Shown piece by piece: positions 5,996 through 18,402 of a stretch of DNA of 40,621 bases (its first letter is position 1; each line of letters starts with the position of its first letter). The stretch comes from a phage: sequence record PX596819.2; one strand, 5' to 3'. The notes below the pieces were generated by a model. The model was not told where the DNA came from. It saw only the letters and a list, made by a program, of their open reading frames with translations, and made no database searches. The position numbers were made by a program, and so were the translations under genes.

Positions 5996-6043
5996 TATGC
6001 CTCCTGTTATGAATTAAAATGGAGACCTATGGTAGCGCCTCCA

Positions 6044-6066
6044 GTTTCCTATAGTGATAGTTTAGT
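6044..6066 (-). promoter_or_regulatory. Phage RNAP promoter (phi17-like)
   Basis: Minus strand ACTAAACTATCACTATAGGAAACTGGAGG just upstream of gene 17, overlapping the gene 16 stop. Confidence 0.65.
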
Positions 6067-9000
6067 CCTTGATGTGAATGCCTTGTTCCTCAAACGTTCC
6101 AAGCAACAGCTTCTGGGTAATGGGGTCGTTCGGAACCAGTTCACGGAGCGTATTATACATCCCGGTCATGTAGTCACGCTCGTTGACACGAGTATCAGCC
6201 TTGAGGTAGCCAGCCAAGTTGTAAGCCGAAGCGCCAACGTTAGCAGCATATCCGAAAGCTGGAACCTGCTCCAAGAAGTTACCAACAACATTCATCACAG
6301 GGTCACTTGTAGCTGCACCATACGCGATGGCACGTTCAGGCTTCTCTGTAGGAGAACGAGGTAGGATAGACGAACGGAGCATCTTAGTGTCCTCATACCC
6401 AGCGATGCCACCCAGAATGTTAGCTACCCCAAGTGGGCCACCCAGATGTGAACTACGGGACAGAGACGCATAACCAATCATCGTCGGGTCCAGAGCTTGC
6501 TTAAGGTAATCACGGTCTCGACCATCCTGCATGGCATAAGCCTTGACGTGCGCCTGAGCCATGTAGTAGATACCAGCCAGGCCCATAGACATCACGGTCG
6601 ATAGTGCAGCATCAATCGCTCGGTTGTTCTTCGTGGCGTTATAGAAGGTACGCATGGTTCGCCCATTGATGGACTTGATTACGAAGTTCTTAAACTGAAG
6701 GACAGTCTTAGCGATAGGACCATAAGCCTTGGCGTCCATGTTGGACAGCTTATAAGGACGGAGTAACGTTTCGTCAGCGATGGTGTCACCCATACGCCAC
6801 AGGTCCATAGCCCTTGGGTCCTGACTGAACGCCTTCTTATCCTTGATGGTATACTTCCCGTCTGGACCACGAGTCACTGACTCACGGATTAGGGACTTAA
6901 TACCATTCCACTGCTCGTTAGAGATACCAGCGGTCTTCAGCCATCGGTCATCGAACTTACGCTTACTACCAGTCAGGCTATGCTCCACGATGTCAGACAG
7001 GAAGCCTTGACGTCCAGCGTCTAACAGGTAGTTTGTTGTACCGTTGAGGACTTTAGTTAACGGCGAGCGTACTGCAAGTTCACCAGTGTAATACTTGGCA
7101 GTCCCAAGAGCTGTAGCCGCCCCGCGACCTAGGTCGCTATAGGAGCGAAGACGGTCAATGACATCCTGTTTAGACGGGCGGATTGAGTCATCAAGTTCCT
7201 TACCGAAGAGAACATTGTGAAGGTCCTTAATCTCTGAGGCTCCGACCTTCTTGTTACGGAAGGCTAGGTCACGGAACATCGGGACTCCATGAAGCATTGC
7301 GCGAACGTTACCGCGAGCCAGCATACCGCCAATCTCCGTTAAGTTCTGAACACCCATGTAGGCATTCTTAGCGAAGAACGATAGGTCCGTCATTGTGCGC
7401 ATCACGGTAGCGAAGGCCGCATCGTCAGCACCATCACGTCGAGCACGTCCAGTGAGAATCTTCAAGGTGTCACGCAAGGTAGATACCTCACCTTTCAACT
7501 TTCCGTCATCACCAGCTTTGTTCATCATGGTCTCAACTAAGTCCTTCATTTCCTTCGTGGTCTTTCCTGTACCAGCCATGATAGCAATGTCACCATTAAT
7601 TCGACGGTTGTAGGCCGGGACAATCTTGTCCATGTCCCACTCGCGAAGACTATTGACGCTGAACTGCTTACCATTTGGCAAGGTGATTTCCATGTCGTTA
7701 TCGAACAGGTTGCGAGCCTCAAGGAAGTTATTGTTCTCCAGACCAACCAGACCGTTGATGTTTTCTTCCATTACGGATGAACGCTCAAACTGCTCTGTAT
7801 GGGAGATACCATAAGCCTTATCATTAGCATACTTCTCTACCATATCCATAGTCACCTCTGGTGCTGCTTGAGATGCGTTGCCAGATGTAGTTTCACCAGA
7901 TGTAGTGTCCTGACCATCTACAGAAGACTTCTGCCCTTTGGCAGCTGCCACAGCCGATTCAGCTTCAGTTGTTGCTTTGGTGATTCTGTCTCGAACCTTA
8001 TCAGCCTGTCCTTTCATGTAGTCGAGACGCTCGGTGTTAATACGGACGTGAGACTTCTGTGTCTCAATCATCTGCTTCCGACTCTCAATCTTAACAGGAA
8101 TGGTCTTGCTATTAGGCTTAGCAGCTAGCTTTTCTTCCAACTCCTTCAGCTTAGCTTCATGAGAATCCAGTCGGTCCTTGGAGTTCTGGAGTTTCTTTTC
8201 ACGGTCTGCAACTCGCTTCTCAGCGTTGGTAAGGACATCTTTGAGTTCCGCTACCTTATCAATTGCCTGTGTAGCTGCATCGTCCAGTTTCATCTGGTCA
8301 CGAGCTGCTTCTACAGAAGAACGATGATTTGATGCAGTACCTACAGTCTTACCTGCCGCTGGTTGAGATGCCCGTAACTGCTCTGCTAACATCTCGTCCA
8401 CTCGCGCCTTGACTTCAGGTCTTGACGCATAGCTTGTCAACCATGACTTCTTGATGGCCTCCTGTAATGCCTCTGGGCTTCCAAGCTCATTGATATAAAG
8501 CTGCTTCATCTGAGAACTGTAGACTACAGGAACGTAGGTTCCCTTGAATCTACTACCCGGAAAGATAGACTTAGCGTCTGTACGACCAAACATCGCTGGG
8601 TTCTCCATCATTTCACGCTTTGCGTCAAACTGGTTCTTCAGCATGTCATAGACTTTCAGTTCCCCCGGAGTAAGTTCAGACTTCAGGTTCCCGCTACCAT
8701 CCTCAATAGCCAAAGCTACGCGCTTATAAACATCCTCACGCAGAGCTGAGTTATCTCGCCAGAACGCTGTCTGGAAGTACGGGTCCTTGAGAGCCTCAGT
8801 AACCGCATCGTCGATGTCGTTGTAGAACCGATGGTCCACAGCACGAAGTCTCTCGAATACGTCTGACGCAGTGGTCCCGATTTTACCTGAGGCCCCTGAC
8901 TGCATACCAGTCGGTGAACGCACTAGGTCAGCAGCGACTCCACGAATCTCAGGGTTCTCGGACCGAAGCAGCTTCAGGCCAATCTCAGTCAGACCACCAA

Positions 9001-13867: not shown

Positions 13868-16225
13868 TTAGACGGAACGAGCTTTCTTAGCGTATGACGC
13901 CTCCCAGCCACAACCAACGATGGACACTGGGGTAGGATAATCTGACTCTAAGGTTAGACTCGTGGTTAATGCGTTACCATTCATAGCGAAGCGATACTGA
14001 CCATCCCCAATGTTGGTAGTCCCGATGGTTTGCTGACCAAGGGTGTACCCGTTGAAGGTATTCACGAACTCCCGCTCACCGTTTCTGACAATGAGTCTCA
14101 GAGCGCCAGTGTCTTTGTAGTTGATCCAAGCCCGACGAAGCTGTAGACGACCAGTGTCTTCAGACTGAGTGCCACTATCATCTTCAATCTTAATCAGGAA
14201 CCGTGAGAACTTGTAGGACATCAGATAGGACCGTCCGATGAACACTGTGCGTCCTGACCAATCGCCGTTGAGGATAACAACAGTAGAGATACTGGTCAAG
14301 TCCCCAAGGTCCACATAAGCACCCTGACTGTCAATTAGATAGTACCGACCGGGAGACGGAGCGTTGCCGCCATAAGCAGCACCAATGTCAACCGTAGTCT
14401 TATAGGTGTCAGCATTATATGAGCCAATTGGAATTACCATAGACACCTTGGAGTCAACGTGTAGTCTATATGGCTCTGACGGTAAGTCAGTTGCCTCCTT
14501 GATGAACTTAAGGTGCTCAATGTCTACCCCTCCTTGGTGCTGACGAACGATGAACATGGTAGAGCCAATAGAAGCAGACGCCAGAATCTTATCATCTTTA
14601 GGGAACTCCCAGTGTGACCAAGAGGCTTGAAGCTGTACGCCGTCCTTAAACAAGAACTTGTAGATGTAGATACGGTTGTATGCACCTGTAGAGTTGACGC
14701 AGATGTAGTTCTCAGTCCCTGTACCTTGAATATCAAACACCCCGTTAGGGATGTAGGACAGTACGTGACCAGTTGTATCATCGGCATCCTTCACATCAGA
14801 CACATCAGCTACAGCGAAGTATCGCTTAATGCTGGTGAATGACCCACGAGGAGCTGAGAAGAAGACTGAGCGTCCTACAGCGAACGGTCTGGCATTATCA
14901 CCTAAGGCAAACTCTGAGCCTACATCAAGCTGGATAGACTTCGCAGTTAGGACCCCAGAGCTTGTCATCACGAACTGCACCTCGTCTGACCAAAGTAGTA
15001 GTTGCTCGCTAAACGGGACTGCATACTTAAGGATTGAGATTCTAGGGTGACTTACGGCTACGTCAATAGGGTCGTCATCACTAAGTGTCGCCACACTCTT
15101 AGGGAAGAACGCAAAGTAGCTGGCTGAACGACTCATGATTACGTTCTCTCCTGACAGGAACCCCAGCCTGTTCCTGTAGAAGAACACATCGTTAATCGTA
15201 GCATCCACGAAGCTAGGCATGGGGTTTGTGTCATCATTACCAGCACCACGCTTAGACCAGTCCAGAGTCTTGAACTCAAAGGAGCCGTCAGATTGTCTCA
15301 CCAGAGCGTGAGGCATTGTGGTGTTATCGAACCCAGTGACCACTCCCGGCTCTACTGTCTCCTTCCACGTCTTAGTGTTGGAGTCATACATCACGTAATA
15401 TTCATCTGCACTACTGTTGGTCTCACCTTGGATCTTAATGATATACCCATTAGGAGCTGCAAGAGGTAGTTTAGAGATTGTCTGCACAGTGTCTAGGACT
15501 GGGCTTATTAGCTGATTAGCGTAGCCATCCTCCGTCTCCACTGAGTTAATGTTGGTCCCTGAAGGGGCTGTGATTAGCAGGAAGCCAGACCCAAGGTCGA
15601 ACGTGAAGGTAGGATAGGCAGCAACAAGAAGGTCTCTCAGAGCTGCACCGATGGCCTGAGCATCCACCTTAGGTGGGTCATTCTCGGCATCATTACCTGC
15701 TGGCAACTTATGTGAAACCTTAACGCCTCCATTGATTCCAACCTTAAGGGTGCGACCATACTGTCCACCACGCAGGTTGATTAAAGCACGAGCTTTACGA
15801 TTATAACCAGAGTGTGACTTCTCGCTTCCACCTTTAACGACAACCTTACGGTTAACAACGAACGTATAGTCTGCCACGGTAACGACACGGATGTCATCTC
15901 GTGGGTTGGAGGACTTAACGTAGTCTACCGCACCGGAAACTGAGTATTGATTACCACTCAAGTCAACTACCTGAATGTTGGACCCGTTGAACACGATGTA
16001 ATACTGCTCCTGCTCATCACGGTTAATCAGGTGGAACTTAGGGTTGCTCCCAACGTCGATGTCAAGACGTCGCTTGAAGACTGTAGGCGGGCGCTTCTGG
16101 AGGCCATCACTCTCTGAGGACCAGCAGTTAACCTGTGACTCGCCTTGGTCTGAGAACCTCAGTATATCAGGCTGCTGGCTAATGCCCCCTTTAAGATTTT
16201 TTATACTCTGTGTGATAAGCGGCAT
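13868..16225 (-). CDS. gp12: Tail tubular protein B (gp12)
   Basis: 785 aa vs 794 in T7; synteny. Confidence 0.9.
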   Translation of the reverse strand: MPLITQSIKNLKGGISQQPDILRFSDQGESQVNCWSSESDGLQKRPPTVFKRRLDIDVGSNPKFHLINRDEQEQYYIVFNGSNIQVVDLSGNQYSVSGAVDYVKSSNPRDDIRVVTVADYTFVVNRKVVVKGGSEKSHSGYNRKARALINLRGGQYGRTLKVGINGGVKVSHKLPAGNDAENDPPKVDAQAIGAALRDLLVAAYPTFTFDLGSGFLLITAPSGTNINSVETEDGYANQLISPVLDTVQTISKLPLAAPNGYIIKIQGETNSSADEYYVMYDSNTKTWKETVEPGVVTGFDNTTMPHALVRQSDGSFEFKTLDWSKRGAGNDDTNPMPSFVDATINDVFFYRNRLGFLSGENVIMSRSASYFAFFPKSVATLSDDDPIDVAVSHPRISILKYAVPFSEQLLLWSDEVQFVMTSSGVLTAKSIQLDVGSEFALGDNARPFAVGRSVFFSAPRGSFTSIKRYFAVADVSDVKDADDTTGHVLSYIPNGVFDIQGTGTENYICVNSTGAYNRIYIYKFLFKDGVQLQASWSHWEFPKDDKILASASIGSTMFIVRQHQGGVDIEHLKFIKEATDLPSEPYRLHVDSKVSMVIPIGSYNADTYKTTVDIGAAYGGNAPSPGRYYLIDSQGAYVDLGDLTSISTVVILNGDWSGRTVFIGRSYLMSYKFSRFLIKIEDDSGTQSEDTGRLQLRRAWINYKDTGALRLIVRNGEREFVNTFNGYTLGQQTIGTTNIGDGQYRFAMNGNALTTSLTLESDYPTPVSIVGCGWEASYAKKARSV

Positions 16226-16234
16226 AGTCCCTCC

Positions 16235-16462
16235 TTAAATCATACTCATTATGACGTATCCTTCAGCAATGTCGCCAACGTCGGAAATGTGGACAACCTT
16301 ACGCGCTACCTGTTGTCCAGTATACCCGTTGTCCCACTCATTCAGGATAAGCCAGTCGCCAACCTTAAAGTCCCGGTCGTTAAGTCTCAGCTCTGCTGTC
16401 TTTAGACCTAGTTGTATCGGACCAAAGTGCTGGCGGTGAATCTTCAGGTTGTGACTAGCCAT
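16235..16462 (-). CDS. DUF3850 / ASCH-like small protein inserted between tail tubular genes
   Basis: 75 aa with the pattern LKIHRQHFGPIQLGLKTAELRLNDRDFKVGDWLILNEWD..GYTGQ..GYVIM, which I recognise as the DUF3850 (ASCH/PUA-like) family signature; T7 has no gene at this position. Confidence 0.55.
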   Translation of the reverse strand: MASHNLKIHRQHFGPIQLGLKTAELRLNDRDFKVGDWLILNEWDNGYTGQQVARKVVHISDVGDIAEGYVIMSMI

Positions 16463-17028
16463 TAGTCCCTCCCGATGTCAGACATCATGTTGTAACGACC
16501 AGTGTCCATCTCGTATTCCATGACCTGCTGATAGAGTTCTGCTTCCTGCTCACGAAGGTACAGTTCAGACTCTGGGCTACCGAAGAACTTAGCGTTGAAC
16601 TCACGGCTAGCCTTTGTAACGATGTAGTCCCTGAAGACCACTGGCATCTCAGAGAATGGTTTCATCTCAACAAGCTCTACCGTTATAGGGTCGGTGAAGG
16701 TGGTTGACTGAGTGGACAGGTCGTACAGGTATCCACCCATGTTGCTATAATAGCTGGTGGCCCCGGCAGTCATTACACGAAGGTATGACGGTAGGAATCG
16801 AATCCTGTTGTCTTTGACATCAGGTGTCAGGATAGCAGCTTCGTTGATGTTAAAGTTCCAGCCTTTAGCTTGGACCTGACGATTGACACGATGCAGGATA
16901 CGCTGAGCGTTCGAGATGTCAGCGTTCCCCTCGTCAAGCTGTAGGACTGCTGGTTCACCGATAGCAGCTAACATATCGTTGATGGCATCTAAATCATCGT
17001 TAGCGTTAAGTGGAATGTATTGAGCCAT
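16462..17028 (-). CDS. gp11: Tail tubular protein A (gp11)
   Basis: 188 aa vs 196 in T7; synteny. Confidence 0.88.
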   Translation of the reverse strand: MAQYIPLNANDDLDAINDMLAAIGEPAVLQLDEGNADISNAQRILHRVNRQVQAKGWNFNINEAAILTPDVKDNRIRFLPSYLRVMTAGATSYYSNMGGYLYDLSTQSTTFTDPITVELVEMKPFSEMPVVFRDYIVTKASREFNAKFFGSPESELYLREQEAELYQQVMEYEMDTGRYNMMSDIGRD

Positions 17029-17040
17029 AGGCCCTCCTTA

Positions 17041-17086
17041 AGCAAAAAAAAAAACCCTCAAGCACCCGAAGGCACCCAAGGGGTTT
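17041..17086 (-). terminator. Tphi-like intrinsic terminator after the capsid gene
   Basis: Minus strand AACCCCTTGGGTGCC-TTCG-GGTGCTTGAGGG followed by T11: GC-rich stem, UUCG tetraloop and U-tract; same position as T7 Tphi. Confidence 0.7.
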
Positions 17087-17089
17087 CAA

Positions 17090-18402
17090 TTAGTTTGTGA
17101 AAGATACGTTGAAGGAACGCACAGGCGAACCGTCATACAAAACAATCACTGGACCTTCCACGCCAGAGGTGGCCCTGAAGTAGAGACTGTTGGTTCTACG
17201 GGAGTAACTAACACCATCAGGCGTAGTAACATCAAGAAGCGACCAGTCGGTCACATCTGAAAGCTCCGGGAAGTCAACCTTCAAGCTGGTTCCCACCGTA
17301 GAACTATACGTCTCTAAGGTAGGACCCTCTGTAGAGAGGGCCTTAAGGGTCGTTAACCCCCTGCCGCTGCTGTGAAAACCAGTGCGCCAGCAGCTTCAGG
17401 ACGCAGGCCACCGTGTCCCATAGCGTACTTACCAACAATCAGGTCGCCCTGAGCATCGACGTCACGGTCACGTTCCAGTGCCAAATCACGCAGCTTAACA
17501 GTACCAACAGCAGAACGGTGAGAGAACAGGCCAACAACGTTGTCAAGAGCAACTTTAGTATCACCACCAGCAGTAGCTGGGAAGGCGTGCTTCTGACCAC
17601 TCGCAATAGTGATGCCGTCAGCGCCACGAGTTTCACCAGCACCACCCTGAGTCAAGTGTGGAACTTCAACAACAACGAAGCCCATCACGTTACGGATGTT
17701 ACCAGTCTCTGGGTCAATCAGCGCAGCATAGTTAGCAGCGTTAGGCATCAGAGCAGCGAGGATTGCAGAGTAGTTGTCAGGTGTGGTGTAGAAGTAACGG
17801 TCGCCAGCAGGAACGTAGTTGGCGGTCAGCTTCGCACGAGCAATAGTCAATTGACCAATGATTGCTTCACCTAGTTTAGCTGGAGTGTTGAGGTCAGCTT
17901 TCTTACCAACTTCCAGTACGGACGCAGTACCTAGACCAGCGATGTTCTCGTTGGATGCGGATGGTAGGTTGCACAGGATAGCCATTTCAGCCAGAACAGC
18001 ACCATCAGCAGCGATAGCCAGAGCTTCACCCAACTGGTTGGAATACTCACCAGCAACGTCATAGTGGTTCATCGCGTCTTCAATGTCGAAAATCATCACA
18101 TCGGCAGTCAGAAGACCATCAATGGTAATCACTTTCTCGGTATGTTTGATACCTTTGCGCTTATCGGACAGTCGCTCACCGGGAGCCAGATACACACCAG
18201 AGGTGCGACCCATGACCGGGAACTGAGCAGACTTGCCATTCTGAATGGTACGGACAATATGCTTGTCAGCCGTTACAGAGCGGCGAGTGAATGCGGTCAG
18301 GACTTCACCAGCAAATACCTTCAGGAACAACGCTAGAGCATCGGAACTGGATTTACCTTTACCTTGGTCTGTACCAATTTTCTGACCAGGAACGTTTGCC
18401 AT
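17090..18402 (-). CDS. gp10B: Minor capsid protein 10B, predicted -1 frameshift product of gene 10
   Basis: Slippery heptamer G GTT TTC (plus-strand gaaaacc at about 17374-17380) about 6 codons before the 10A stop; the -1 frame stays open to 17090, adding roughly 94 aa. The 68-aa track ORF 17090..17296 is in exactly that -1 frame. Confidence 0.5.
17353..18402 (-). CDS. gp10A: Major capsid protein 10A
   Basis: 349 aa vs 345 in T7; ends ..ALVFTAAAGG; strong promoter and leader upstream, terminator downstream. Confidence 0.93.
   Translation of the reverse strand: MANVPGQKIGTDQGKGKSSSDALALFLKVFAGEVLTAFTRRSVTADKHIVRTIQNGKSAQFPVMGRTSGVYLAPGERLSDKRKGIKHTEKVITIDGLLTADVMIFDIEDAMNHYDVAGEYSNQLGEALAIAADGAVLAEMAILCNLPSASNENIAGLGTASVLEVGKKADLNTPAKLGEAIIGQLTIARAKLTANYVPAGDRYFYTTPDNYSAILAALMPNAANYAALIDPETGNIRNVMGFVVVEVPHLTQGGAGETRGADGITIASGQKHAFPATAGGDTKVALDNVVGLFSHRSAVGTVKLRDLALERDRDVDAQGDLIVGKYAMGHGGLRPEAAGALVFTAAAGG

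What the first reader, a model, noticed from the sequence alone, without database searches (positions are those of the whole stretch)
16235..16462. DUF3850 / ASCH-like small gene inserted between tail tubular protein genes 11 and 12
T7 has no gene between 11 and 12. The 75-aa protein shows the DUF3850 pattern (KIHRQHF..LKTAELRLNDRDFKVGDWLILNEWD..GYTGQ..GYVIM). ASCH/PUA-like folds are predicted RNA or modified-nucleic-acid binders of unknown function in phages. The location inside the late structural operon suggests an acquired accessory gene expressed late.
Basis: partly seen in the sequence, partly recalled or inferred. Interest (0 to 1): 0.55.

Follow-up and report, generated by a model that had tools for sequence, protein, structure and literature searches.

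The report
Small ASCH-like gene between tail genes
A 75-codon gene between the two tail-tube genes of this K1F-like (T7-family) phage is a real, conserved but dispensable accessory gene for a minimal ASCH/PUA-like (DUF3850) protein; it is already annotated in many related phage genomes and its function has never been tested.

Summary

It is a real gene. It has a Shine-Dalgarno site, a TAATG overlap with gene 11, and dN/dS of 0.14 across 16 orthologues. It is also dispensable. About 165 of ~212 related GenBank genomes carry it, but K1F, ZG49, Ro45lw and SH3 do not. The difference is a clean 237-bp cassette bounded by a duplicated ribosome-binding site.

The gene is already annotated: gene 11.05 in CR44b, "DUF3850" or "RNA-binding protein" elsewhere. 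The CR44b record does not flag it among virion proteins seen by mass spectrometry.

All family-invariant polar residues are kept, including the Lys/Glu/Arg ASCH motif needed for ac4C deacetylation in other ASCH proteins. The protein is acidic.

Best guess (about 0.35): a non-structural, late-made small enzyme or binder for a modified base. The finding is ordinary and of low novelty.

The parts
16235..16462 (-). CDS of the 75-aa DUF3850/ASCH-like protein (stop TAA at 16237..16235)
   Evidence: ORF list and sequence. Pfam DUF3850 E 7.9e-20. dN/dS 0.14 and an excess of third-position variation, 29/21/51 variable sites by codon position.
16468..16472 (-). Shine-Dalgarno GGAGG, 5 nt upstream of the ATG. 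The ATG (16462..16460) overlaps the gene 11 stop codon (TAATG)
   Evidence: Read directly from the sequence. The same arrangement is conserved in CtuP_B1 and LET1.
16463..16472 (-). Direct repeat copy 1, GGAGGGACTA (3' end of gene 11 plus RBS)
   Evidence: Exact 10-nt repeat found at 16472..16463 and 16234..16225 and visible in the alignment.
16225..16234 (-). Direct repeat copy 2, GGAGGGACTA (RBS and first base of the gene 12 start codon)
16223..16459 (-). 237-bp cassette absent from K1F and ZG49. It comprises codons 2-75, the stop codon, a second RBS and the ATG of gene 12
   Evidence: Junction alignment: K1F and ZG49 read GGGAG(G/A)GACTAATG|CCG/CCA with nothing in between. The gp11-gp12 gap is 239 nt in carriers against 2-16 nt in non-carriers.
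16462..17028 (-). Gene 11 (tail tubular protein A), upstream neighbour
   Evidence: 98% identical to K1F gp11.
13868..16225 (-). Gene 12 (tail tubular protein B), downstream neighbour
17055..17082 (-). Tphi-like intrinsic terminator upstream of gene 11 (12-bp stem plus T10). It sets the transcription context of genes 11, 11.05 and 12
   Evidence: Terminator scan. It occupies the same position as T7 Tphi and as the terminator annotated in Ro45lw.

Best explanation
The gene encodes a stand-alone, minimal ASCH/PUA-like beta-barrel protein of the DUF3850 family. It is a non-structural accessory gene, carried as a 237-bp cassette with its own copy of the gene 12 ribosome-binding site. It is translated by coupling to gene 11 from late transcripts that read through the Tphi-like terminator. 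These steps are shown, or follow directly from the sequence. The next step is inference. The protein forms a small pocket from the family-invariant residues H4, K7, K21, E24, R26, N28-D29-R30, D36 and E42. This pocket accepts a modified base or nucleoside. Most probably the protein acts as a hydrolase of the ASCH type, deacylating N4-acyl-cytosine (for example ac4C) on a free nucleoside or on host tRNA. It would act alone, without a phage partner, as a host-takeover or counter-defence function that is useful but not essential. My confidence in the family and fold is about 0.97, in the accessory, non-virion status about 0.85, and in the enzymatic mechanism about 0.35.

For: Real gene. dN/dS is 0.14, against 0.027 for gp11, and the gene has an RBS and a TAATG overlap.

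Dispensable. It is absent from about 22% of related genomes, at a clean junction.

Not seen in the virion. The CR44b record marks gp11 and gp12 as 'matches in mass spectrometry' but does not mark 11.05.

No partner gene. In 4 carriers against 4 non-carriers, no plausible second gene family co-varied with DUF3850; the only other ORF family found (3 of 4 carriers) was a <=56-codon ORF taken as spurious.

Active-site-like conservation. In 149 representatives from an index-free search, identity to the window residue is H4 0.99, K7 0.96, K21 0.98, E24 0.96, R26 0.98, N28 0.91, D29 0.99, R30 0.98, D36 0.98 and E42 0.99.

Link to characterised enzymes. hhalign against YqfB gives 90% probability, with K21, E24/T24 and R26 in register. 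YqfB K21A, T24A and R26A mutants are inactive (PMC6972931). A Lys/Glu pair is essential for tRNA ac4C removal in 'GKER'-type ASCH proteins, and all 19 ASCH proteins tested removed ac4C from tRNA in vitro (bioRxiv 10.64898/2026.02.27.708502).

Charge. The protein is acidic like YqfB: pI 6.4, and 85% of 106 stand-alone homologues have pI below 7.
Against: No DUF3850 protein has ever been assayed. DUF3850 lacks the C-terminal helical part of ASCH that carries YqfB His70 and Glu74; Glu74Ala lowers kcat 100- to 1000-fold. An earlier study reported that some Glu-type ASCH proteins (ZmASCH, TRIP4) do not hydrolyse ac4C nucleoside (cited). The motif segment, residues 21-30, is the least confident part of the model (mean pLDDT 67). 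Fusions to DNA-binding modules (LexA wHTH, ParB-CTPase) and occasional DNA-methyltransferase neighbours point to DNA rather than tRNA. No benefit to a lytic phage from removing ac4C from tRNA-Met is known. Two orthologues (CR44b, LET1) have lost N28-D29-R30, so the function may be decaying in some lineages.
Confidence: 0.35

Rival explanations
1. The protein is a non-catalytic reader of a modified DNA base (N6-methyladenine, or N4- or 5-methylcytosine). It would bind methylated host or phage DNA and modulate DNA transactions, for example by shielding sites from modification-dependent nucleases or by marking DNA for replication or packaging.
Against: Only 12 of 80 diverse loci have a detectable methyltransferase nearby, which could simply reflect a shared location in early prophage regions. 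T1-like and Webervirus contexts have no adjacent methylase. Kayfunaviruses encode no methyltransferase. The protein is acidic and only 75 aa long, and it has many invariant charged residues typical of catalysis rather than an aromatic cage.
Confidence: 0.22
2. The protein is a general RNA-binding protein or translational regulator, as the common database label 'RNA-binding protein' implies. It would act on late phage mRNAs or on host RNA.
For: PHROG 986 is labelled 'RNA-binding protein', and many GenBank records repeat the label. PUA/ASCH domains were originally predicted to be RNA-associated (Iyer et al. 2006, cited). In Caulobacter a chromosomal DUF3850 gene lies just downstream of yidC and a 50S-ribosome-binding-type GTPase gene (PF01926; engB is inferred from the synteny).
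Against: The label is transferred annotation with no experiment behind it. The protein has a net negative charge (pI 6.4; family median 6.0). YqfB, the closest characterised relative, was used as a non-binder of nucleic acid. The strict invariance of 10 polar residues suggests a defined pocket rather than a binding surface.
Confidence: 0.1
3. The protein is a sponge or decoy for a modified-nucleotide alarm signal. It would sequester, or destroy, a nucleotide such as m6-dAMP that is released when the phage degrades the Dam-methylated host chromosome, and so blind PUA-domain sensors of abortive-infection systems.
For: A PUA/ASCH-clan sensor domain that binds m6-dAMP triggers the PUA-Cal-HAD defence in E. 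coli (bioRxiv 10.64898/2026.01.15.699771). The window's relatives encode gp3 endonuclease and gp6 exonuclease, which in T7 degrade host DNA (established knowledge). The protein is small, acidic, made late and probably abundant, acts alone and is variably present, all typical of anti-defence genes.
Against: This is pure analogy. No binding data exist. The counter-defences reported in that paper are DNA mimics, not sponges. Late expression may be too late to intercept an early signal. Homologues are also found in temperate phages and as a Caulobacter chromosomal gene.
Confidence: 0.07
4. The protein is a tail assembly factor or minor virion component, as its position between the two tail-tube genes might suggest.
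Against: It is absent from K1F and ZG49, whose gp11 and gp12 are 98% identical to those of the window. The CR44b record does not flag it in virion mass spectrometry although its two neighbours are flagged. Homologues in siphoviruses, myoviruses and prophages sit in early and replication modules.
Confidence: 0.03
5. The ORF is a decaying or non-functional passenger with no current role.
For: It evolves about five times faster at non-synonymous sites than gp11 relative to synonymous change. It has been lost repeatedly. The CR44b and LET1 variants have lost invariant residues.
Against: dN/dS of 0.14, an intact reading frame in about 165 genomes, and all family-invariant residues retained in the window copy.
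Confidence: 0.03

Closest known systems
Orthologous gene in other Kayfunaviruses: gene 11.05 of Citrobacter phage CR44b (HG818823), 'activating signal cointegrator' in JSS1, and 'DUF3850 domain-containing protein' or 'RNA-binding protein' in EPr2, Bas105, LM33_P1, ST31 and others
   Same: Same position between genes 11 and 12, same 75-aa length, and 90-96% identity in most records.
   Different: Nothing of substance; the window copy differs by about 3 residues from its nearest relatives. The CR44b copy is only 46% identical and has a degenerate motif.
Pfam PF12961 (DUF3850) and PDB 3IUW, a structural-genomics entry for 'activating signal cointegrator' from Enterococcus faecalis
   Different: None known. 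Neither protein has an assigned function.
E. coli YqfB, an ASCH-domain N4-acetylcytidine amidohydrolase (PDB 1TE7, 9KYF)
   Different: Glu replaces the essential Thr24. The roughly 28-residue C-terminal helical segment with His70 and Glu74 is missing. Identity is only about 21%. DUF3850 has its own extra invariants: H4, K7, N28-D29-R30 and E42.
Glu-type ('GKER') ASCH proteins reported as tRNA ac4C deacetylases (TthASCH, EOLA1, TRIP4-ASCH; bioRxiv 10.64898/2026.02.27.708502)
   Same: Same G-x-K-x-x-E-x-R octapeptide. The Lys and Glu are the residues found essential for tRNA deacetylation.
   Different: Those proteins are larger canonical ASCH domains. No DUF3850 or phage protein was tested.
ZmASCH, a single-strand-specific ribonuclease from Zymomonas mobilis (PDB 5GUQ)
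   Different: 143 aa, 11% identity, and a different activity.
YTH and EVE readers of modified bases (m6A, 5mC)
   Different: No sequence similarity. Those domains use aromatic cages, whereas DUF3850's invariant residues are mostly charged.

Membership tests
Pfam PF12961 (DUF3850) | HMM score above the gathering threshold over the whole profile | tested here: met
   71.3 bits against 22.9, covering profile positions 2-76 of 77.
Pfam PF12961 (DUF3850) | Family signature residues H4, K7, G19, K21, E24, R26, N28-D29-R30, G35-D36, E42, G49 | tested here: met
   All are present in the window protein. Each is 0.90-0.99 conserved in 149 representatives from an index-free search, and also in 105 distant members (that set is partly biased by word seeding).
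Pfam PF12961 (DUF3850) | Fold of the family's solved structure, 3IUW | tested here: met
ASCH superfamily (PF04266) | HMM score above the gathering threshold | tested here: met
   26.9 bits against 21.2, but only profile positions 2-61 of 103 are matched.
ASCH superfamily (PF04266) | G-x-K-x-x-E-x-R octapeptide | tested here: met
   G19-L-K21-T-A-E24-L-R26, in register with YqfB G19/K21/T24/R26.
ASCH superfamily (PF04266) | C-terminal helical segment of the canonical domain of about 100 aa | tested here: not met
   The protein ends at residue 75. The hhalign alignment to YqfB stops at YqfB residue 60. DUF3850 is a truncated, minimal version of the domain.
YqfB-type N4-acetylcytidine amidohydrolases | Catalytic Lys21 and Arg26 | tested here: met
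   K21 and R26 align. Their role is shown in PMC6972931.
YqfB-type N4-acetylcytidine amidohydrolases | Thr24 in the octapeptide | tested here: not met
   Glu24 takes its place.
YqfB-type N4-acetylcytidine amidohydrolases | His70 and Glu74 (general acid) | tested here: not met
   No counterpart: the segment is absent. Whether E42 or D36 substitutes could not be tested.
YqfB-type N4-acetylcytidine amidohydrolases | Hydrolysis of ac4C or N4-acylcytosines | not testable with these tools
   Needs an enzyme assay.
Glu-type ASCH tRNA ac4C deacetylases (preprint 2026) | Lys and Glu of the octapeptide | tested here: met
   K21 and E24 are present.
Glu-type ASCH tRNA ac4C deacetylases (preprint 2026) | Removal of ac4C from tRNA | not testable with these tools
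   Needs LC-MS of tRNA after expression or in vitro incubation.
T7-like virion or tail structural proteins | Present in all phages that share the same tail proteins, and found in virions | tested here: not met
   Absent from K1F and ZG49, whose gp11 and gp12 are 98% identical. The CR44b record does not flag it in virion mass spectrometry, although gp11 and gp12 are flagged.
Known anti-phage defence components (PADLOC) | Significant match to a defence-system model | tested here: not met
   The only hit is a partial one at E 0.0074 to PDC-M07B.

The most novel reading that the evidence does not exclude
DUF3850 proteins may be a very large family (more than 5,000 clusters at 50% identity), found mainly in phages and prophages in the contexts sampled here, of minimal ASCH enzymes or decoys. 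[quoted passage not shown] The natural carrier and non-carrier Kayfunaviruses would then be a ready-made isogenic test system.
Probability: 0.12. Interest if true: 0.7.

Novelty: already known. Interest (0 to 1): 0.25.

Why it matters
The gene itself is ordinary and already annotated. Its modest value is as an entry point to a large uncharacterised family. DUF3850 has 5,486 clusters at 50% identity, and nearly all the contexts sampled were phage or prophage. It has ten near-invariant polar residues, and no member has ever been assayed. ASCH relatives have recently been reported to be ac4C amidohydrolases and tRNA deacetylases, and a PUA-clan domain has been shown to sense a methylated nucleotide in phage defence. 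A 75-residue stand-alone member is therefore a cheap biochemical target. Here it is carried or omitted by otherwise near-identical lytic phages as a clean 237-bp cassette, which also makes it a cheap genetic target.

Tried and rejected
(1) DNA-methyltransferase association. Yersinia, E. coli, Gordonia and P2-like cases are striking. However, only 12 of 80 diverse bacterial loci have a detectable methyltransferase within 5 kb, by my seed-HMM and motif scan of limited sensitivity. T1-like and Webervirus neighbours are not methylases. I kept this as a lead for a rival explanation, not as a finding.

(2) RNA-repair association. A polynucleotide kinase lies near the gene in pSf-2 and an RNA ligase near it in Listeria LP-101. 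These are two anecdotes and I did not pursue them.

(3) Neighbour-family clustering in 80 loci gave only generic prophage genes (CI/LexA-like repressor, integrase, DnaC, SSB, HNH, terminase) plus the Caulobacter yidC-engB context.

(4) A search for a co-inherited partner gene in 4 carrier and 4 non-carrier Kayfunavirus genomes found none. The sample is small.

(5) Rfam and sigma-70 promoter scans of the region found nothing relevant inside the gene.

(6) PADLOC and NCBIfam gave no meaningful hit.

(7) Literature: the seven papers that mention DUF3850 contain no functional data, and no paper was found on the Kayfunavirus gene.

(8) C-terminal extensions of longer DUF3850 proteins have no Pfam domain in ten cases sampled.

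(9) Base composition of the cassette is indistinguishable from its neighbours, so it gives no sign of recent import.

Full report
**Observation.** The window is a K1F-like member of the T7 family (genus Kayfunavirus), with its genes on the minus strand. It is 93-94% identical over 87-91% of its first 25 kb to phages CLB_P1, ST31 and K1F. It lies between gene 11 (tail tubular protein A, 16462..17028) and gene 12 (tail tubular protein B, 13868..16225). Pfam gives DUF3850 at E 7.9e-20 (71.3 bits, cut-off 22.9, whole profile) and ASCH at E 8.1e-6 (26.9 bits, cut-off 21.2, N-terminal 61 of 103 positions). PHROG 986 matches at E 1e-34. T7 itself has only a 23-nt spacer between genes 11 and 12.

**It is a real gene.** A GGAGG Shine-Dalgarno site (16472..16468) lies 5 nt upstream of the ATG. 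The ATG overlaps the gene 11 stop codon (TAATG). Nine nucleotides, including a second GGAGG, separate its stop from the gene 12 ATG. Across 16 orthologues the median pairwise dN/dS is 0.14, and variable sites fall 29/21/51 by codon position. Gene 11 in the same genomes gives 0.027. The gene is therefore under purifying selection, but a more relaxed one than its structural neighbour.

**Transcription context.** A strong intrinsic terminator (12-bp stem plus T10) lies at 17082..17055, just upstream of gene 11. No sigma-70-like promoter of note and no terminator lie inside the gene. This is the T7 layout: Tphi before gene 11 and phi13 after gene 12. The promoter maps of CR44b and Ro45lw likewise show no phage promoter between genes 10 and 13. 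Late expression by read-through, coupled to gene 11, is therefore inferred from the anatomy and has not been measured.

**It is an accessory cassette.** About 165 phage records carry a copy at least 60% identical, all between genes 11 and 12. K1F itself does not: in AM084414 gene 11 ends where gene 12 starts. ZG49, Ro45lw, SH3, SH4, IMM-002, SFPH2 and others also lack it. That is 14 of 60 evenly sampled records, or about 22%. In IMG/VR, 13 of 24 related contigs carry it.

The junction alignment shows a clean difference of 237 bp (16459..16223). K1F reads GGGAGGGACTAATG|CCG. The window reads GGGAGGGACTAATG|GCT...TAAGGAGGGACTATG|CCG. The cassette thus carries a second copy of the 10-nt GGAGGGACTA ribosome-binding and start region, at 16472..16463 and 16234..16225.

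Carriers and non-carriers occur in both gp12 sequence types, so there has been repeated loss, gain or recombination. The nearest relatives of even the most divergent Kayfunavirus copies are other Kayfunavirus-type 75-aa proteins. GC and GC3 equal those of the neighbouring genes. Both facts fit a long residence in the genus rather than a recent import. The junction is also used by other insertions: Hafnia phage yong1 has an extra endonuclease gene right after the DUF3850 gene.

The family is large. An index-free search found 5,486 clusters at 50% identity with E at or below 1e-3. A word-seeded profile search found 5,016 clusters at 90% identity.

**Signature residues.** In 149 representatives from the unbiased search, identity to the window residue is as follows: H4 0.99, K7 0.96, G19 0.90, K21 0.98, E24 0.96, R26 0.98, N28 0.91, D29 0.99, R30 0.98, G35 0.97, D36 0.98, E42 0.99 and G49 0.96. 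Ten near-invariant polar residues in 75 is the pattern of a defined pocket or active site.

G19-x-K21-x-x-E24-x-R26 is the ASCH octapeptide. A profile alignment to YqfB (90% probability) puts K21, E24/T24 and R26 in register (the YqfB sequence was verified against 1TE7). In YqfB, the K21A, T24A and R26A mutants are inactive and E74A is 100- to 1000-fold down (PMC6972931). A 2026 preprint reports that 19 ASCH proteins of both the Thr and the Glu type remove ac4C from tRNA in vitro, with the Lys and Glu essential in Glu-type members. It also notes an earlier contrary report for some Glu-type proteins on the free nucleoside.

DUF3850 lacks the C-terminal helical part of ASCH that holds YqfB His70 and Glu74. 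The window protein is acidic (pI 6.4), as are 85% of 106 stand-alone homologues and YqfB itself (pI 4.7). That does not suit the database label 'RNA-binding protein'.

**Contexts elsewhere.**
- In other phages and prophages the gene sits in early, replication or recombination modules, not in tail operons.
- It lies next to DUF3987 and primase/helicase genes in a Klebsiella siphovirus.
- It lies among small early genes in T1-like pSf-2.
- It lies after gene A in a P2-like phage, fused to DUF7415 and followed by a C5 methylase.
- It lies in Listeria, Gordonia, Enterococcus and Guernseyvirinae replication regions.
- It lies in the nin region of E. coli lambdoid prophages, before NinB and Dam.
- In Yersinia prophages it lies two genes before N6-adenine methyltransferases of three different families.

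Fusions seen are a tandem DUF3850, DUF7415, a LexA-type wHTH and a zinc ribbon. The literature adds ParB-CTPase fusions that are enriched in phages.

Methyltransferase-like ORFs cluster within 5 kb of the gene (16 of 16), but occur in only 12 of 80 diverse bacterial loci. In Caulobacter a 159-aa DUF3850 protein is chromosomal, just downstream of yidC and a 50S-ribosome-binding-type GTPase gene (engB by synteny). These contexts do not settle whether the target is DNA or RNA.

**Not structural, no partner.** The CR44b GenBank record marks gp11, gp12 and nine other proteins as 'matches in mass spectrometry', but not gene 11.05. This is indirect evidence, because small proteins can be missed. K1F and ZG49 build the same tail (gp11 and gp12 98% identical) without the gene. 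Comparing 4 carrier with 4 non-carrier genomes, no plausible second gene family co-varied with DUF3850. Kayfunaviruses encode no methyltransferase.

**Mechanism.** I commit to the following, with about 0.35 confidence for the enzymatic step. The protein is a non-structural protein made late. It uses the invariant K21/E24/R26 motif together with H4, K7, N28-D29-R30, D36 and E42 to hold a modified base or nucleoside. It probably hydrolyses an N4-acyl-cytosine-type substrate, as characterised ASCH enzymes do, and this gives a conditional advantage in host takeover or counter-defence.

The rivals are:
- a non-catalytic reader of methylated DNA (0.22), favoured by the DNA-binding fusions and the methylase neighbours;
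- a generic RNA binder (0.10);
- a sponge for a modified-nucleotide alarm such as m6-dAMP, by analogy with the PUA-Cal-HAD sensor (0.07);
- a tail factor (0.03);
- a decaying passenger (0.03).

CR44b and LET1 copies have lost N28-D29-R30, which may mark decay or a change of function in those lineages.

**Comparison with what is known, and verdict.** This is a member of Pfam DUF3850: all membership tests were met. It is a truncated member of the ASCH superfamily: the motif and barrel tests were met and the C-terminal segment test was not. It is not a YqfB-type enzyme in the strict sense, because Thr24, His70 and Glu74 are not met. The same gene is annotated in many GenBank records: as gene 11.05 in the CR44b record (the genome announcement dates from 2014), as 'activating signal cointegrator', and as 'DUF3850' or 'RNA-binding protein'.

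The finding is real but ordinary, and its novelty class is 'already known'. Its remaining interest is that no DUF3850 protein has been characterised, and that this genus offers natural carrier and non-carrier pairs.

Noticed in passing
window 17090-17296 (minus strand), and the end of gene 10A at 17353-17400: A 68-codon ORF lies in the -1 frame relative to the major capsid gene 10A (17353..18402). That frame is open from within the last ~12 codons of 10A, where the heptamer GGTTTTC occurs. It looks like the T7-type gene 10B frameshift extension. CR44b annotates it that way, but several relatives list it as a separate hypothetical protein.
   Followed up: partly
window 17055-17082 (minus strand): A strong Tphi-like intrinsic terminator (12-bp stem, T10 tail) lies between genes 10 and 11. 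It gives a weak sub-threshold Rfam hit to NsiR1, which is presumably just the hairpin.
   Followed up: partly
L002 1878-2318 (Hafnia phage vB_HpaA_yong1): An extra 'endonuclease' gene is inserted between the DUF3850 gene and gene 12, overlapping the start of gene 12. A Klebsiella phage (PRA1340) also has a homing endonuclease annotated at this junction. The 11/12 junction seems to be an insertion hot spot.
   Followed up: no
L079 3567-3791 (= Citrobacter phage CR44b gene 11.05) and L007 1501-1719 (Pectobacterium phage LET1): These orthologues at the same locus have lost the otherwise invariant N28-D29-R30. CR44b reads KTCDLRPSIPE and LET1 reads KTAELRPYDEG, and CR44b has also lost K7. This may reflect decay or a change of function.
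   Followed up: partly
L034, L035, L036, L037 at 6001-8001 (Yersinia prophages): An identical 84-aa DUF3850 gene is followed by the same 72-aa ORF, and then (after one extra 236-aa ORF in L035) by an N6-adenine methyltransferase. That methyltransferase belongs to three different Pfam families in different strains: Dam PF05869, D12 PF02086 and MT-A70 PF05063.
   Followed up: partly
L139 7204-10480 (Caulobacter sp. RHG1), similar in about 12 Caulobacter genomes: A chromosomal, non-prophage DUF3850 protein (159 aa, with an Ala-rich C-terminal tail) is encoded directly downstream of yidC and a 50S-ribosome-binding-type GTPase gene (engB by synteny). A cheW-like gene lies opposite.
   Followed up: partly
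L020 and L021 6001-6543; L023 and L024 5995-6375; L026 5986-6543: Viral contigs encode DUF3850 fused to an unknown ~100-aa C-terminal domain, to a CxxC...CxxC zinc ribbon, and to a LexA-type winged-helix DNA-binding domain.
   Followed up: partly
representative proteins P0152, P0161, P0168, P0176, P0181, P0183: Many cluster representatives of 200-400 aa have DUF3850 at residues ~9-85, followed by long regions with no Pfam match. These may be unknown partner domains or over-extended gene calls.
   Followed up: no
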